DNA of 64,000 nucleotides from a virus (Duplodnaviria > Caudoviricetes): positions 1 to 64,000 of IMG/VR virus record IMGVR_UViG_3300046615_000208. One strand, given 5' to 3'. The translations under genes and the position numbers were made by a program. Position 1 is the first letter of the stretch; each line of letters begins with the position of its first letter. Under the pieces are notes generated by a model. That model made no database searches, was not told the origin of the DNA, and saw only the letters and a program-made list of their open reading frames with translations. This document shows positions 5,803-32,887 of the stretch, piece by piece.

Positions 5803-5876
5803 GCACCCTTATCCCAATTGGCAGAGGACTACGGCTTAGACCCGTAGCGTTGAGAGTTCGAGTCTCTCAGGGTGCA
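5803..5876 (+). tRNA. tRNA-Leu(TAG), short variable loop
   Basis: GCACCCT/AGGGTGC; CTACGG-CTTAGAC-CCGTAG. Confidence 0.88.
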
Positions 5877-5878
5877 CG

Positions 5879-5949: not shown

Positions 5950-6023
5950 GCTTCCTTACCCCAATTGGCAGAGGGGCTGGCCTCAAAAGTCAGTAGTTGA
6001 GAGTTCGAGTCTCTCAGGAAGCA
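5950..6023 (+). tRNA. tRNA-Leu(CAA), short variable loop
   Basis: GCTTCCT/AGGAAGC; GCTGGC-CTCAAAA-GTCAGT. Confidence 0.88.
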
Positions 6024-6028
6024 CGTAG

Positions 6029-7427: not shown

Positions 7428-7501
7428 GGCCCTGTATCCCAACTGGCAGAGGACGTAGGTTGAGAGCTTACGCGTTGGAGGTTCGAATCCTCTCAGGGTC
7501 A
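7428..7501 (+). tRNA. tRNA-Leu(GAG), short variable loop
   Basis: GGCCCTG/CAGGGTC; CGTAGG-TTGAGAG-CTTACG. Confidence 0.87.
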
Positions 7502-7553
7502 CGTTTGACAGAGATTTTTCTCTGTGATACAATGTAGGTAACGAAAGGTAGTT

Positions 7554-8300: not shown

Positions 8301-8384
8301 GGGTGTGTGGCGGAACGGCGAGACGCGCTGCGCTTAGAACGCAGTACATAAGAACCACTGTGGGTTCAAATCCCACCATGCCCA
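8301..8384 (+). tRNA. tRNA-Leu(TAG), longer variable region
   Basis: GGGTGTG/CATGCCC; CTGCG-CTTAGAA-CGCAG. Confidence 0.9.
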
Positions 8385-8488
8385 CGAATGTTCGTTATTG
8401 ACATTGTGTCCGCATATCTGATAATATGTGGGTAGCACGAAGCGAGGAATTATCAGTACCCTCACAAAATAACATGTGTTTGTGATTA

Positions 8489-9291: not shown

Positions 9292-9320
9292 TTGACACTC
9301 TCGCGAAGAGATGTTAAACT
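9292..9320 (+). promoter_or_regulatory. sigmaA-type promoter of the 9358 gene and downstream RNA
   Basis: TTGACA-N17-TAAACT with TG extension. Confidence 0.7.
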
Positions 9321-9357: not shown

Positions 9358-10089
9358 ATGACTAAGCTTAATCAGATTGTTGCAGTGGAAAAGGGCGAAA
9401 AGGCTCGCGCACTCACCGAGGAAACCGTACTCCACCGCGAAGTCCAGAAGACCCCTCTTCTCGCCGGTATCTCCCGTACCTACAAGCCCAAGGACGACGA
9501 TGGCGACCAGCTTCCCGCTGAGTCTACCCGCGTTCAGGTCAACGCCGAGGACATCCTCGAAAAGCTGGGCAAGACCCTGACCAATCTCTTCGACATCACC
9601 CTCACCAAGGAAGTTGCCAACACCAAGGCGACCGCAGATGTAGTTGTTGATGGCAAGACCCTCATCAAGGGCGCTCCGGTCACCTACCTGCTCTTCCTTG
9701 AGAAGCAGCTTATCAACCTCCGTACCTTCGTCGCCAAGCTCCCGATCCTCGATCCGGCTGAGAACTGGACCAAGGACCCGAACACTGGTGCTTGGGCAAC
9801 CGATCCCACCCAGACCGTCAAGACCAAGAAGGTTCCGAAGAACTGGGTCAAGGCTGAAGCTACCGACCGCCACCCGGCACAGGTCGAAATCTTCCACGAG
9901 GATGTCATTCAGGGAACATGGACCACAGTCAAGTTCTCCGGTGCCCTTCCCCAGACCCGAGTCGCGGAACTCACCGAGCGTGTCGATGCTCTGATCAAGG
10001 CAGTTAAGTTTGCCCGAGAAGAAGCCAACAACGCCGACGTTGATGACACCAAGGCAGCTAAGGCTGTCTTCGACTACCTACTCAAGTAG
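9358..10089 (+). CDS. Conserved protein of unknown function (243 aa), linked to the downstream tRNA-like RNA
   Basis: Strongly biased, highly-expressed-type codon use; motifs KLNQIVAVEKG, RTYKPKDDDGDQLPAE, PVTYLLFLEKQL, HPAQVE, KFSGA, VKFAREEAN. Confidence 0.9.
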   Translation: MTKLNQIVAVEKGEKARALTEETVLHREVQKTPLLAGISRTYKPKDDDGDQLPAESTRVQVNAEDILEKLGKTLTNLFDITLTKEVANTKATADVVVDGKTLIKGAPVTYLLFLEKQLINLRTFVAKLPILDPAENWTKDPNTGAWATDPTQTVKTKKVPKNWVKAEATDRHPAQVEIFHEDVIQGTWTTVKFSGALPQTRVAELTERVDALIKAVKFAREEANNADVDDTKAAKAVFDYLLK

Positions 10090-10109
10090 TCCCCTAGATT
10101 CCTACGTGA

Positions 10110-10490
10110 GCGCGTAGGTGCACGAAAGTGCTAGACTGAAGTTGATTCCTCAGACTAAAAAGTATTCTCAGCCCCAGTGGAGGTTCGAATCCTCCCCCTG
10201 CCACCAATTCATGGCAGGGTAGTCCAAATGGTAGAGACAGCCCCGGATACGTATTAGACTCAAGTTATCGCTCAAGTCTTAGTACCGTACCACCCTTGTG
10301 GGTCAACCACTACACTAACTATTTATGAGATAAGGGTTCGATCCCCTTTCCGCCCTCTGAGTCCTCGACTCTATGTAACACCCAAGGGCGGATGGCTTAA
10401 TGGCATAGCGCATAAACTTCAAACTGAAGTGTAGTTTAAACGTATCACAGGGGAATGATGGAAACAATCATGCAAATATGATCAAACATT
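10110..10490 (+). ncRNA. Double circularly permuted tRNA-like (Y-RNA/YrlA-like) ncRNA
   Basis: Two T-arm -> loop-closed acceptor stem -> D-arm modules (10179-10238, 10332-10409), each on a long closing stem. Confidence 0.75.
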
Positions 10491-10492
10491 TG

Positions 10493-10529
10493 GACCCCCT
10501 AGAGTCGGATATGCTCTAGGGGGTCGTTT
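10493..10529 (+). terminator. Intrinsic terminator
   Basis: GACCCCCTAGAG/CTCTAGGGGGTC then GTTT. Confidence 0.75.
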
Positions 10530-10572
10530 CCATTTCCGGGGTATAATGGTTTGTCACCTATTAGGAGAAACC

Positions 10573-17463: not shown

Positions 17464-17788
17464 GTGGATGACCGGTTTCGACAGGTTACCTGAAATAAGA
17501 AACGCAACACGAAACGGACTACATTCGTAAAAGTGGTCAAAACAATAATCGCAAAAAACGATTTCGCACTAGCCGCGTAGGCTAGCCCGGAGACCGAAAG
17601 CCTCGCAGGTCTTCAACGGGTCATCTAGAGGCTACTACGACCCAGCCAACGTAGACGGCAGTCGGAAGAGCTAAGCTACAAAACCTCTGTGGAGTCCTAG
17701 AGCGACACAGTTGACTTAGTCTAGGAATTGTTGTAGAATGTTCTTATGGAAAGTATCTTGGACGGGGGTTCGATTCCCCCCATCTACA
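17464..17788 (+). ncRNA. ssrA: tmRNA, tag (A)AKNDFALAA
   Basis: GTGGATG/CATCTAC with G3:U70, GGTTTCGAC 5' end, GGAC-GGGGG-TTCGATT-CCCCC T-arm, tag ORF 17551-17580 after ATAATC. Confidence 0.93.
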
Positions 17789-17801
17789 CGAAAGGGAGAA
17801 T

Positions 17802-22596: not shown

Positions 22597-22670
22597 GATC
22601 ATATGGCCGAGGGGCAAGGCGCTAGTCTGCAAAACTAGTCACGCGGGTTCGAATCCCGCTATGATCTCCA
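22597..22670 (+). tRNA. tRNA-Cys(GCA), CCA encoded
   Basis: GATCATA/TATGATC, U73, CCA; CTAGT-CTGCAAA-ACTAG. Confidence 0.93.
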
Positions 22671-23258: not shown

Positions 23259-23332
23259 GCTTCCATAGCCCAAAGGCAGAGGCGGAGAACTTAAAATCCT
23301 CCACAGTCTCGGTTCGAGTCCGAGTGGAAGCA
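23259..23332 (+). tRNA. tRNA-Leu(TAA), short variable loop
   Basis: GCTTCCA/TGGAAGC; loop CTTAAAA. Confidence 0.88.
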
Positions 23333-23358
23333 CGATACTATAGCAGAAAGGTAGACAA

Positions 23359-32164: not shown

Positions 32165-32887
32165 ATGACTGACGCAAAACTATATCTAGTAGGAGGTGCA
32201 GTACGAGACCACTACCGGGATGCTAAATCCAAAGACATCGATTTCGCCGTAGAGGCGGATTCCTTTGATGCCATGCGTGATTTCCTCAACGAACGAGACT
32301 TTGAAATCTTCACCGAGGCCGAGCGCTACTTCACCATCCGGGCACGTGCCCCAAAGGGTAAGTTCCAGTTCGGGAATTTCGATATGTCCAACACCACGTT
32401 CGACTTCACCCTGACCCGTAAGGAACGCGACTACACCGATGGTCGGCACCCTGACGTTGTGGAGATGGGAGACATCTACGATGACCTTTCCCGCCGTGAC
32501 TTCACCATGAACGCCATAGCCATCAACTCCAAGGGTAAGACACTCGATCCCTTCAATGGTGTGGACGACATCTATTACTCGACCATCAAATGTGTTGGTG
32601 GAACCGAACGCCTCATCGAGGATGGACTGCGGATTATCCGTGCACTTCGGTTCCGTGTCCAGCTAGGGTTTAGCTTCGATTCGGAGGTACATGATTTCAT
32701 GCTTACCCCGGAAGCCGTAGATGCCCTCAGGAAGGTCTCGCAGGACCGAGTGAGGCAGGAGTTGGCAAAAGCTCTGAAGATCGATCCTATGGCCACTCTA
32801 AGGCTTCTGACGACCTATAGCGAGATTGGTGAGCTTATCTTTGACGAGATGGGAATCTGGTTGGAGCCTACAAGTAAAAACAAGTGA
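32165..32887 (+). CDS. cca: tRNA nucleotidyltransferase (class II CCA-adding), compact
   Basis: LVGGAVRD..DIDF, DL.RRDFTMNA, DPF.G, EDGLRIIRALRF. Confidence 0.9.
   Translation: MTDAKLYLVGGAVRDHYRDAKSKDIDFAVEADSFDAMRDFLNERDFEIFTEAERYFTIRARAPKGKFQFGNFDMSNTTFDFTLTRKERDYTDGRHPDVVEMGDIYDDLSRRDFTMNAIAINSKGKTLDPFNGVDDIYYSTIKCVGGTERLIEDGLRIIRALRFRVQLGFSFDSEVHDFMLTPEAVDALRKVSQDRVRQELAKALKIDPMATLRLLTTYSEIGELIFDEMGIWLEPTSKNK

What the first reader, a model, noticed from the sequence alone, without database searches (positions are those of the whole stretch)
10196..10219. Permuted module 1 hides an encoded A73-CCA in its acceptor loop
Seen: the 3' acceptor strand CCCTGCC is followed by A-CCA (10203-10206), 6 nt of linker and then the 5' strand GGCAGGG. 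In contrast only 1 of the 43 real tRNAs here encodes CCA. Established: permuted two-piece tmRNA genes are matured by excising exactly such a loop (RNase P cut plus 3' trimming). Inference: the RNA may be processed into a multi-piece RNA with a chargeable CCA end but no anticodon.
Basis: partly seen in the sequence, partly recalled or inferred. Interest (0 to 1): 0.75.

Follow-up and report, generated by a model that had tools for sequence, protein, structure and literature searches.

The report
Encoded CCA in phage tRNA-mimic RNA
The flagged ACCA lies in the loop capping the acceptor-like stem of a back-to-front tRNA-Leu look-alike, and CCA recurs there in relatives far more often than chance, which suggests but does not prove that the loop is cut open to give a tRNA-type CCA end.

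Summary
CCCTGCC (10196-10202), A-CCA (10203-10206), ATTCAT and GGCAGGG (10213-19) form a loop-capped 7-bp acceptor-like stem between a T-arm and a D-arm. Only one of 42 real tRNA genes here encodes CCA.

This is module 1 of two circularly permuted tRNA-like domains in a ~440-nt ORF-free RNA (10091-10530). The RNA follows a DUF7873 gene. In 158 loci found through that protein alone (78 viral, 80 bacterial species), 154 carry such modules.

CCA sits at positions 74-76 in 77 of 274 capping loops, against 0-6 at neighbouring offsets. C74 is present in 90% and a pyrimidine at 75 in 87%. An eighth 73:-1 pair is avoided.

The architecture is that of YrlA Y RNAs. However, the Ro60 gene, the Ro60-binding motif and the Rfam gathering score are all missing, so it is not a YrlA member. 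It is also not a tmRNA or a permuted tRNA gene. Module 1 copies the phage's tRNA-Leu arms.

Best reading (~0.5): RNase P opens the loop and the 3' side is matured to CCA, as shown experimentally for Mycobacterium smegmatis YrlA. Charging is speculative.

This scan has met the same DUF7873-RNA pair before, in many other genomes. I found no paper or Rfam family for it.

The parts
9292..9320 (+). Promoter-like site (TTGACA-17-TAAACT, with TG) upstream of the DUF7873 gene. It is the inferred start of the transcription unit.
   Evidence: It is a consensus match only. No promoter-like site lies between the ORF and the RNA.
9358..10089 (+). DUF7873 protein gene (243 aa), the constant upstream neighbour of the RNA.
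   Evidence: Pfam PF25283, 352.6 bits. 5925 homologues. The AF2 model has pLDDT 88.9 and no convincing structural match.
10091..10530 (+). The whole ORF-free structured RNA carrying two permuted tRNA-like modules.
   Evidence: No ORF of 40 aa or more on the + strand. Fold z = -5.8. Conserved in 20 aligned loci. 72% identical to Arthrobacter phage Racecar, in a gap that is unannotated there.
10101..10118 (+). Hairpin H1, CCTACG-TGAGCG-CGTAGG. The loop GAGCG (10108-10112) probably pairs with CGCTC at 10269-10273.
   Evidence: The stem covaries with Racecar. The loop and its partner covary as GAGCG/CGCTC versus GAGCA/TGCTC, consistent in 14 of 16 readable loci.
10162..10167 (+). 5' strand (GTATTC) of the helix that closes module 1. 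It pairs with GGATAC at 10245-10250 and stands where a tRNA has its anticodon stem.
   Evidence: Minimum-free-energy fold. A closing helix of 3-6 bp is present in all 24 aligned homologues, in a shifting register (read by eye).
10179..10195 (+). Module 1 T-arm, with a 5-bp stem and the loop TTCGAAT.
   Evidence: Three of the 5 pairs covary across 24 sequences. It is nearly identical to the T-arm of the phage's tRNA-Leu(gag).
10196..10202 (+). Module 1 3' acceptor strand, CCCTGCC.
   Evidence: All 7 pairs with 10213-10219 show changes on both sides across 24 sequences.
10203..10206 (+). Encoded discriminator A73 plus CCA. This is the finding.
   Evidence: NCCA occurs at this offset in 77 of 274 homologous loops, against 0-6 at neighbouring offsets.
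10207..10212 (+). Linker ATTCAT. It ends in C(-3) A(-2) U(-1), matching the family pattern C-R-N before G+1.
   Evidence: Across the family, -3 is C in 84%, -2 is a purine in 86%, and -1 is T in 53%.
10213..10219 (+). Module 1 5' acceptor strand, GGCAGGG. The predicted RNase P cut lies 5' of G10213.
   Evidence: The cut site is inferred from tRNA geometry and from M. smegmatis YrlA (PMC4201824).
10220..10239 (+). Module 1 U8-A9 and a D-arm of tRNA-Leu type, with a 3-bp stem (GTC/GAC) and an 11-nt loop containing GG.
   Evidence: The stem covaries. The D-arm signature belongs to short tRNA-Leu genes in this window and in 12 of 12 other viral loci checked.
10269..10274 (+). CGCTCA, within the conserved TTATCGCTC block after module 1. 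It is the candidate partner of the H1 loop.
   Evidence: alignment. The covariation was read by eye.
10332..10412 (+). Module 2: T-arm 10332-10348; 3' strand TCCGCCC 10349-10355; a 30-nt capping loop with its own hairpin 10356-10385 (U73, no CCA); 5' strand GGGCGGA 10386-10392; then the D-arm.
   Evidence: The T-stem and acceptor stem covary with Racecar. In other loci module 2 carries TCCA, for example L014, L016, L055, L064, L125, L136, L139 and L151.
10493..10525 (+). Terminal hairpin, terminator-like, with the conserved loop CGGATATG.
   Evidence: The loop sequence is kept while the stem covaries in the homologues.
32180..32584 (+). Phage ORF with a PolyA_pol (CCA-adding enzyme family) head domain. 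It could complete or repair a CCA end.
   Evidence: PF01743, 82.7 bits. Its activity is inferred from the family only.

Best explanation
Positions 10196-10219 are the loop-capped, 7-bp acceptor-like stem of the first of two circularly permuted tRNA-like domains. Each domain runs T-arm, acceptor stem, D-arm, and is closed by a helix where a tRNA has its anticodon stem.

Both domains lie in a ~440-nt non-coding RNA (10091-10530). That RNA is probably co-transcribed with the upstream DUF7873 gene.

The RNA-protein pair is a conserved, undescribed cassette. It occurs in phages of Actinobacteria, Proteobacteria and Cyanobacteria, and in actinomycete chromosomes. It is built like a YrlA Y RNA but does not depend on Ro60.

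Module 1 copies the D-arm, T-arm and A73 of the phage's own short tRNA-Leu genes.

The most likely mechanism for the flagged loop has three steps:
1. Host RNase P recognises the 12-bp acceptor/T stack, the elbow, U-1/G+1 and A73-C74-C75, and cuts 5' of G10213.
2. The six-base 3' overhang is trimmed back to the encoded ACCA at 10206. In relatives that encode only N73-C74, the end is rebuilt by a CCA-adding enzyme; this phage encodes one.
3. The RNA stays together through its helices as a nicked, multi-piece particle with a tRNA-type acceptor end.

Shown here: the architecture, covariation, linkage to DUF7873, absence of Ro60, the loop signature and the likeness to tRNA-Leu. Inferred: transcription, cleavage and trimming. 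Aminoacylation is speculative.
For: Sequence and fold.

Covariation: 13 of 15 pairs, including all 7 acceptor pairs, change on both sides in 24 sequences. The 17 loci first found through the protein alone all carry the module. Every acceptor stem my scan detected there has 7 of 7 pairs. Fryberger's module 1 was read by eye, also 7 of 7 with one G-U.

Linkage: modules lie directly 3' of DUF7873 in 75 of 78 viral loci and 79 of 80 bacterial loci that were anchored on the protein only. They are also present in Klebsiella, Vibrio, Rhizobium and Pseudanabaena phages and in Streptomyces and Micromonospora chromosomes.

Loop signature:
- CCA at positions 74-76 in 77 of 274 loops, against 0, 3 and 6 at neighbouring offsets.
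- C74 in 90%, Y75 in 87%, and U the commonest base at -1 (53%).
- Loop length ranges from 6 to about 157 nt.

An eighth 73:-1 pair is avoided: 68 observed against 125 expected.

N73-C74-Y75 fits the established RCC/GGU pairing of bacterial RNase P RNA with its substrate. This comes from my own knowledge (Kirsebom and Svard 1994). The RCCA dependence is also stated in the abstract of PMC12710915.

Precedent: M. smegmatis YrlA has a 7-bp stem. It is cut by RNase P in vivo and by M1 RNA in vitro, and it then gains CA (PMC4201824; 10.1101/312249).

The phage has a CCA-adding-type ORF.

Contrast: Ro60-linked phage modules are capped by the tetraloops CTCG or CCCG and lack this signature.

tRNA-Leu likeness.
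Against: - No transcript-end, cleavage or charging data exist for any member.
- CCA is absent from 72% of loops. Its presence is scattered on the DUF7873 tree, with about 8 changes, not different from shuffled labels. That tree is poorly resolved.
- The modal loop is only 7 nt, and both ends are conserved (N-C-Y-N-C-R-N). C(-3) and R(-2) are unexplained. This looks as much like a read-out loop as like a disposable spacer.
- In this window A73 can pair with U-1, giving an 8-bp stem in the minimum-free-energy fold. That could shift or weaken an RNase P cut.
- Module 2 here has no CCA, and its capping loop carries a hairpin of its own.
- Most YrlA RNAs are thought to keep the loop closed (10.1101/312249).
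Confidence: 0.5

Rival explanations
1. The RNA is the same DUF7873-linked tRNA mimic, but the capping loop stays closed in vivo. The N-C-Y-N...C-R-N loop would then be a recognition surface. It could be read by DUF7873. It could hold RNase P or another tRNA-end-binding factor without being cut, acting as a decoy. Or it could contact CCA-binding sites. On this reading the CCA is partly a relic of descent from a tRNA-Leu gene.
For: - The modal loop length is 7 nt, and both ends are conserved, including C(-3) and R(-2), which RNase P rules do not explain.
- CCA is missing in 72% of loops and is scattered on the tree.
- S. Typhimurium YrlA and most other YrlAs are described as closed-loop tRNA mimics (10.1101/312249).
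- The window's loop can add an A73:U-1 pair.
Against: - Insertions of up to about 157 nt are tolerated inside the loop, while N73-C74-Y75 and the last three bases are kept. That is the behaviour of a trailer/leader pair rather than a compact loop.
- The stem is held at exactly 7 bp, with 73:-1 pairing avoided.
- A relic would not be kept at 28% across phyla when the real tRNA genes of this phage encode CCA in 1 of 42.
- The 7-bp M. smegmatis YrlA is cleaved (PMC4201824).
Confidence: 0.35
2. It is a classical Ro60-bound YrlA/YrlB-type Y RNA pair that uses the host's Ro60 (Rsr).
For: - YrlA (RF02553) is the only Rfam family that matches over its full length: 20.2 bits here, and 25-38 bits in relatives.
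- The permuted order T-arm, acceptor stem, D-arm is the same.
- Tandem YrlA/YrlB units are known (PMC4201824).
Against: - All scores fall below the gathering threshold of 69 bits. Junctions between tandem tRNA genes in the same window score 14-19 bits.
- No TROVE domain was found in the phage, in six related phage genomes, or in 3 of 4 bacterial genomes that carry the cassette. The fourth (G027) has a partial TROVE match on another contig.
- The GNCGAAN0-1G motif is absent here. It appears in 5 of 30 phage/viral elements and in both bacterial loci checked, at scattered positions; shuffled sequence gives about 0.1-0.5 hits per element.
- Ro60-encoding contigs lack DUF7873, and the reverse also holds.
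Confidence: 0.04
3. It is a two-piece (circularly permuted) tmRNA, or a permuted tRNA gene that matures into a decoding tRNA.
For: The gene order is the same as in permuted tmRNA genes: 3' acceptor strand, CCA, loop, then 5' strand. In the Klebsiella phage, module 2 gives a partial beta_tmRNA hit of 24.8 bits against a gathering score of 84.
Against: - ARAGORN, which detects permuted tmRNAs, calls nothing in the element here or in six other loci.
- There is no conserved tag frame.
- The 3:70 pair is C-G, not G-U.
- A standard tmRNA already exists at 17464-17789.
- There is no anticodon loop, and the closing helix runs on into flanking RNA.
- The bulge-helix-bulge splicing route is not known in bacteria (10.1101/312249).
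Confidence: 0.02
4. It is a decayed tandem tRNA duplication (pseudogene junction) with no function, and the CCA is a chance survivor.
For: The YrlA model also hits junctions of tandem identical tRNAs in this window, for example Thr-Thr at 2618-2683. Module 1 resembles tRNA-Leu.
Against: - There are compensatory changes in every acceptor pair.
- The element is conserved from Klebsiella and Vibrio phages to Streptomyces chromosomes.
- The position after DUF7873 is fixed.
- No flanking tRNA halves are present.
Confidence: 0.01

Closest known systems
YrlA Y RNA, especially Mycobacterium smegmatis YrlA/YrlB (Rfam RF02553; Chen et al. 2014, PMC4201824; Wang et al. 2018, bioRxiv 10.1101/312249)
   Same: - A circularly permuted tRNA mimic: T-arm, loop-capped acceptor stem and D-arm, closed by a helix in place of the anticodon arm.
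- Tandem units made from one precursor.
- The M. smegmatis form has a 7-bp stem, is opened by RNase P and receives CA to give a CCA end. That is the process proposed here.
   Different: - There is no Ro60/TROVE gene nearby or, in nearly all genomes checked, anywhere in the genome.
- There is no GNCGAAN0-1G Ro60-binding motif.
- The Rfam score is 20 bits against a threshold of 69.
- The constant protein neighbour is DUF7873.
- The RNA is larger (~440 nt), with extra hairpins, a probable loop-loop pairing and ACTNAA-type repeats.
- The capping loop carries an N73-C74-Y75 signature, whereas Ro60-linked phage versions are capped by tetraloops.
Two-piece (permuted) tmRNA of alpha-/beta-proteobacteria and cyanobacteria
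   Same: The gene encodes the 3' acceptor strand and CCA upstream of the 5' strand. The intervening loop is excised, leaving a base-paired multi-piece RNA with a chargeable end.
   Different: There is no tag reading frame, no pseudoknot set, no G3:U70 alanine identity and no SmpB link. ARAGORN and the Rfam tmRNA models do not call it. The phage already has a one-piece tmRNA.
Circularly permuted tRNA genes (Cyanidioschyzon merolae type; PMC3978253)
   Same: The 3' half precedes the 5' half, and the acceptor stem is initially a closed loop that RNase P and RNase Z open.
   Different: Those genes mature through a circular intermediate into a normal decoding tRNA with an anticodon loop, using a eukaryal/archaeal splicing endonuclease. 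Here there is no anticodon loop, and the closing helix continues into the rest of the RNA.
b7a-tRNA, the band-7-associated tRNA-like RNA predicted by Burroughs and Aravind 2016 (as cited in 10.1101/312249)
   Same: It is a tRNA-like non-coding RNA predicted to work with a protein partner other than Ro60.
   Different: That RNA is described as resembling an authentic tRNA and as linked to Band-7 and RtcB. This phage has neither Band-7 nor RtcB. I could not read the original paper.

Membership tests
YrlA / bacterial Y RNA (RF02553) | Permuted tRNA-like domain: T-arm, loop-capped acceptor-like stem and D-arm, closed by a helix. | tested here: met
   The YrlA model aligns over its full length (1-114) at 10151-10264.
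YrlA / bacterial Y RNA (RF02553) | Covariance-model score at or above Rfam's gathering threshold (69 bits). | tested here: not met
   20.2 bits here, and 24.8-37.6 bits in relatives. Tandem tRNA junctions in the window score 14-19 bits.
YrlA / bacterial Y RNA (RF02553) | Encoded within about 4 kb of a Ro60/TROVE gene on the same strand (criterion of Chen et al. 2014). | tested here: not met
   No PF05731 match in the 171.7-kb phage record (99% complete). None in Racecar, GodonK, NiceHouse, KpLz-2_45, D505 or Pam2, nor in 3 of 4 host-type bacterial genomes that carry the cassette.
YrlA / bacterial Y RNA (RF02553) | GNCGAAN0-1G Ro60-binding motif near the 5' end. | tested here: not met
   Absent from the window element. 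Found in 5 of 30 phage/viral elements and in both bacterial loci checked, at inconsistent positions; shuffled sequence gives about 0.1-0.5 hits per element.
YrlA / bacterial Y RNA (RF02553) | Physical binding to Ro60/Rsr. | not testable with these tools
   This needs immunoprecipitation.
Two-piece (permuted) tmRNA | Permuted tRNA-like domain with CCA, an excised loop, then the 5' acceptor strand. | tested here: met
   This is architecture only.
Two-piece (permuted) tmRNA | Tag-peptide reading frame with a resume codon, and detection by a tmRNA finder or tmRNA models. | tested here: not met
   ARAGORN calls no tmRNA in the element here or in 6 related loci. No Rfam tmRNA hit at E <= 10 in the window.
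Two-piece (permuted) tmRNA | G3:U70 alanine identity pair. | tested here: not met
   The 3:70 pair is C10215-G10200. In the family it is C-G or G-C in 21 of 24 sequences.
Circularly permuted tRNA gene | Termini that can be joined to restore an anticodon stem-loop (bulge-helix-bulge motif). | tested here: not met
   The closing helix (10162-67 / 10245-50) continues into conserved flanking RNA, with no 7-nt anticodon loop. ARAGORN calls nothing.
Bacterial RNase P substrate (pre-tRNA-like) | A 7-bp acceptor stem stacked on a 5-bp T-stem, a T-loop/D-loop elbow, G+1, U-1 and N73-C74-C75. | tested here: met
   All are present in the window. Family-wide: 7 bp with 73:-1 pairing avoided; C74 in 90%, Y75 in 87%, and U the commonest base at -1 (53%).
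Bacterial RNase P substrate (pre-tRNA-like) | Actual cleavage at the -1/+1 bond. | not testable with these tools
   This needs an in vitro assay or in vivo end mapping. The precedent exists only for M. smegmatis YrlA.
DUF7873-linked double tRNA-mimic RNA (undescribed; met repeatedly in this scan) | Lies directly 3' of a DUF7873 gene on the same strand, with permuted tRNA-like modules about 150 nt apart. | tested here: met
   In protein-anchored loci, 75 of 78 viral and 79 of 80 bacterial loci carry modules.

The most novel reading that the evidence does not exclude
After RNase P opens the loop, module 1 becomes a functional tRNA-Leu-type acceptor. It would have A73-CCA and the tRNA-Leu D-arm and elbow, and LeuRS does not read the anticodon. 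The nicked RNA, bound by DUF7873, would therefore be leucylated. It would act as an anticodon-less aminoacyl carrier, for example on the ribosome or as an amino-acid donor, in phages and actinomycetes. That would be a third kind of charged tRNA mimic, beside tmRNA and the viral tRNA-like structures.
Probability: 0.15. Interest if true: 0.9.

Novelty: new variant of a known kind. Interest (0 to 1): 0.65.

Why it matters
If the loop is opened, this is a widespread RNA-protein particle that displays one or two genuine tRNA acceptor ends without anticodons. It often sits inside phage tRNA arrays.

That would extend the single M. smegmatis YrlA observation into a general, Ro60-independent class. 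It would also open testable questions:
- Is it charged, with LeuRS as the obvious candidate?
- Does it engage EF-Tu, the ribosome or aminoacyl-tRNA-using enzymes?
- What does DUF7873 do?

Even if the loop stays closed, the N-C-Y...C-R-N signature defines a conserved recognition element on an undescribed tRNA mimic. Phages of three host phyla carry it, so it is a candidate player in translation takeover or in conflicts over tRNA.

Tried and rejected
- **Rfam.** I scanned the window element, a Streptomyces copy and a Klebsiella-phage copy at permissive E-values. Only sub-threshold YrlA hits appeared, plus one partial beta_tmRNA hit.
- **Exact-pattern search.** A search for the conserved TTATCGCTC block in viral contigs found nothing because the pattern was too strict.
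- **D-arm/T-arm pattern search.** It returned mostly ordinary tandem tRNA junctions, because the D-arm is that of short tRNA-Leu genes. I used it only after filtering for complementary acceptor strands.
- **DUF7873 function.** There is no PHROG and no PDB sequence hit. Foldseek against PDB and BFVD gave nothing below E = 1e-3. The best VIA-align hit was Z = 8.1 to 3kdq, a protein of unknown function, with rmsd 7.5. The ESM Atlas gave only unnamed clusters at 0.80. The single-sequence AF2 model was useless (pLDDT 43).
- **CCA on the DUF7873 tree.** The tree is star-like (15 of 25 forks open), so it can neither show deep conservation nor count gains reliably.
- **Band-7/RtcB link (b7a-tRNA idea).** Neither family is in the phage.
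- **Burroughs and Aravind 2016.** The paper could not be read; it is not held.
- **Literature.** Searches for DUF7873 and for permuted tRNA-like phage RNAs found no description.

Full report
**1. The observation**

- T-arm GGAGG-TTCGAAT-CCTCC at 10179-10195.
- CCCTGCC at 10196-10202.
- A at 10203 and CCA at 10204-10206.
- ATTCAT at 10207-10212.
- GGCAGGG at 10213-10219, giving seven Watson-Crick pairs.
- TA, then a D-arm GTC-CAAATGGTAGA-GAC up to 10238.

ARAGORN finds 42 tRNAs and one tmRNA in the window and nothing at this place. Only tRNA-Cys (22597-22670) encodes CCA. 41 of the 42 tRNA genes do encode C74, mostly followed by G.

Folded alone, 10155-10255 takes the permuted cloverleaf as its minimum-free-energy structure (z = -2.5). 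The whole 442-nt element has z = -5.8.

**2. What it belongs to**

The stretch from 10091 to about 10530 has no + strand ORF of 40 aa or more. It lies between a 243-aa ORF (9358-10089) and a terminator-like hairpin (10493-10525). The only promoter-like site on that side lies upstream of the ORF.

The stretch holds a second permuted module:
- T-arm at 10332-10348.
- TCCGCCC paired with GGGCGGA.
- A 30-nt capping loop.

The upstream ORF is Pfam DUF7873 (352.6 bits). It has 5925 homologues.

Arthrobacter phages Racecar, Mimi and Talia1610 carry a 72% identical element in an unannotated gap after their DUF7873 gene. Both acceptor stems, both T-stems and the 5' hairpins show compensatory changes.

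Loci anchored on the protein alone showed the same tandem modules in many hosts:
- Rhodococcus and Gordonia phages.
- A Klebsiella jumbo phage, a Vibrio phage, a Rhizobium phage and a Pseudanabaena phage.
- Streptomyces and Micromonospora chromosomes, where the surrounding genes are ordinary chromosomal genes.

In a larger sample anchored on the protein only, 75 of 78 viral loci and 79 of 80 bacterial species' loci have at least one module just downstream. Most have two.

In an alignment of 24 module 1 copies, 13 of 15 pairs, including all seven acceptor pairs, change on both sides. The rows from my own detector were selected for pairing, so the 100% pairing figure is partly by construction. 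The variety of pair types is not.

**3. The CCA**

I collected 274 capping loops from the protein-anchored sample.
- CCA occupies positions 74-76 in 77 loops (28%). At the neighbouring offsets it occurs 0, 3 and 6 times.
- C74 is present in 90%.
- Position 75 is C or T in 87%.
- N73 is mostly A in module 1 and mostly T in module 2.

The 3' end of the loop is also constrained:
- C at -3 in 84%.
- A purine at -2 in 86%.
- T at -1 in 53%.

The modal loop length is 7 nt (for example ACCACGT), but insertions up to about 157 nt occur between the two conserved ends.

An eighth pair between N73 and N-1 is avoided: 68 observed against 125 expected. The stem is therefore held at the tRNA length.

On a DUF7873 tree the presence of CCA is scattered. 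The tree is poorly resolved. So CCA is a facultative feature, as it is in true tRNA genes, and not a fixed one.

NCCA occurs in phages of Actinobacteria (ACCA), Klebsiella (ACCA), Vibrio (GCCA) and Rhizobium (GCCA), and in Micromonospora (ACCA and TCCA). In all these cases the rest of the loop cannot be aligned.

**4. Comparison with known families**

*YrlA.* The only Rfam family that aligns over its full length is YrlA. It scores 20.2 bits here and 25-38 bits in relatives, against a gathering score of 69. Tandem tRNA junctions in the same window score 14-19 bits.

Three features that define YrlA in Chen et al. 2014 were tested, and all three fail.
- *Neighbouring Ro60 gene.* No TROVE domain was found in this phage, in six related phages, or in three of four bacterial genomes that carry the cassette.
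- *GNCGAAN0-1G motif.* It is absent here. In relatives it turns up only sporadically and at inconsistent positions.
- *Rfam gathering score.* As above, every score falls below the 69-bit threshold.

Four viral contigs gave the reverse picture. Their permuted module is capped by a CTCG or CCCG tetraloop. All four encode Ro60 right next to the module, and none has DUF7873. A contig with NCY-type loops has DUF7873 and no Ro60. One of the Ro60 contigs (L036) also has two further modules with ACT and TCT loops, so the split is not absolute.

*tmRNA and permuted tRNA genes.* The element is not a permuted tmRNA.
- ARAGORN calls none here or in six other loci.
- There is no tag frame.
- The 3:70 pair is C-G.
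- A one-piece tmRNA lies at 17464-17789.

It is not a permuted tRNA gene either, because there is no anticodon loop to restore.

**5. Module 1 mimics tRNA-Leu**

Its D-arm has a 3-bp stem and the loop CAAATGGTAGA. Its T-arm and variable region best match the phage's own short tRNA-Leu genes. The top match is tRNA-Leu(gag) at 7428, scoring 23 against 16 for the next best.

The family consensus D-arm, TAGCCCAA..GGYAGAGGC, fell inside a 75-78-nt tRNA-Leu gene in 12 of 12 other viral loci checked.

The Klebsiella-phage and cyanophage copies carry TGGCGGAATTGGTAGACGC instead. That resembles the D-arm of the window's long-arm tRNA-Leu at 8301.

From my own knowledge, not tested here: LeuRS uses A73 and D-arm/elbow features and does not read the anticodon.

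**6. Mechanism**

Several features together make up the bacterial RNase P substrate signature:
- The 12-bp acceptor/T stack.
- The elbow.
- G+1 and U-1.
- An unpaired N73.
- C74-Y75. Both C and U can pair with the G of the GGU in RNase P RNA loop L15; this is established knowledge, and one search gives an abstract stating the RCCA dependence.

M. smegmatis YrlA is the one YrlA with a 7-bp stem. It is cut at exactly this place in vivo and by M1 RNA in vitro, and it then gains CA.

The phage encodes a CCA-adding-family protein at 32180-32584.

My best reading, at about 0.5, is therefore as follows. The loop is opened 5' of G10213, and the 3' side is trimmed to ACCA at 10206. This gives a nicked RNA with a tRNA-type end.

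The main rival, at about 0.35, is that the short loop, conserved at both ends, stays closed and is itself the thing that is read. C(-3) and R(-2) remain unexplained by either reading.

Aminoacylation is possible in principle, with Leu for module 1, but nothing here tests it.

**7. The protein partner**

With a 50-sequence alignment, AlphaFold gives a confident model (pLDDT 88.9). No convincing structural relative was found in the PDB or BFVD. DUF7873's role is unknown. RNA binding is inferred from gene linkage only.

**8. Status**

Earlier notes of this scan describe the same DUF7873-RNA pair in many other genomes and reach the same nearest relative, YrlA. My tests agree with them.

- The loop statistics.
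- The avoidance of 73:-1 pairing.
- The tRNA-Leu identity of module 1.
- The contrast between Ro60-linked and DUF7873-linked loops.

I found no paper and no Rfam family that describes the RNA.

Noticed in passing
window 5803-5877, 5950-6024, 7428-7502, 23259-23333: Four tRNA-Leu genes (anticodons tag, caa, gag, taa) are only 75 nt long. They lack the long variable arm that bacterial tRNA-Leu normally has. A fifth (8301-8385, tag) is the usual long type. The same short tRNA-Leu type recurs in 12 other viral contigs.
   Followed up: partly
window, 3' ends of all 42 tRNA genes: 41 of 42 tRNA genes encode N73-C74 but not CCA. Position 75 is G in 26, T in 10, A in 5 and C in 1. A conserved C74-G75 trailer may be a processing signal. 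The mimic modules instead have a pyrimidine at 75.
   Followed up: partly
window 10108-10112 with 10269-10273: There is a probable loop-to-loop pairing between the first hairpin's loop (GAGCG) and CGCTC in the conserved block after module 1. Relatives switch together to GAGCA/TGCTC. Fourteen of 16 readable loci are consistent, and two have A-C.
   Followed up: partly
window 10133-10160, 10254-10280, 10415-10430: Words of the type AGACTNAAG / ACTCAA are repeated along the single-stranded parts of the RNA. Distant relatives (Rhizobium, Vibrio, L055, L035) carry runs of AAACTCAA-like hexamers. These may be iterated protein-binding sites.
   Followed up: no
window 10493-10525: The terminal, terminator-like hairpin keeps the loop sequence CGGATATG across phages, while its stem covaries. 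The loop therefore seems to matter beyond termination.
   Followed up: no
loci L036, L040, L060, L085 (viral contigs): These are classical Ro60-linked phage tRNA mimics. The permuted module is capped by a CTCG or CCCG tetraloop and sits a few hundred bases upstream of a TROVE gene. None of the four has DUF7873. L036 has three modules in a row, the last two with ACT and TCT loops.
   Followed up: partly
loci L020 3530-3625 and L021 3360-3430 (Gordonia phages Keelan, Fryberger): An extra small tRNA-like element sits between DUF7873 and the two modules. It has GCAACGG...CCGTTGC acceptor strands in normal order and a T-arm. ARAGORN was not run on these two loci, and the records annotate no tRNA there.
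   Followed up: no
window 17464-17789: A standard one-piece tmRNA with the tag AKNDFALAA lies within the second tRNA block.
   Followed up: no
locus L019 3874-4746 (Rhodococcus phage NiceHouse): A Band-7-like membrane protein gene lies just after the RNA and one tRNA. Band-7 proteins were linked in print to another predicted tRNA-like RNA. There is no Band-7 or RtcB in the window's own genome.
   Followed up: partly
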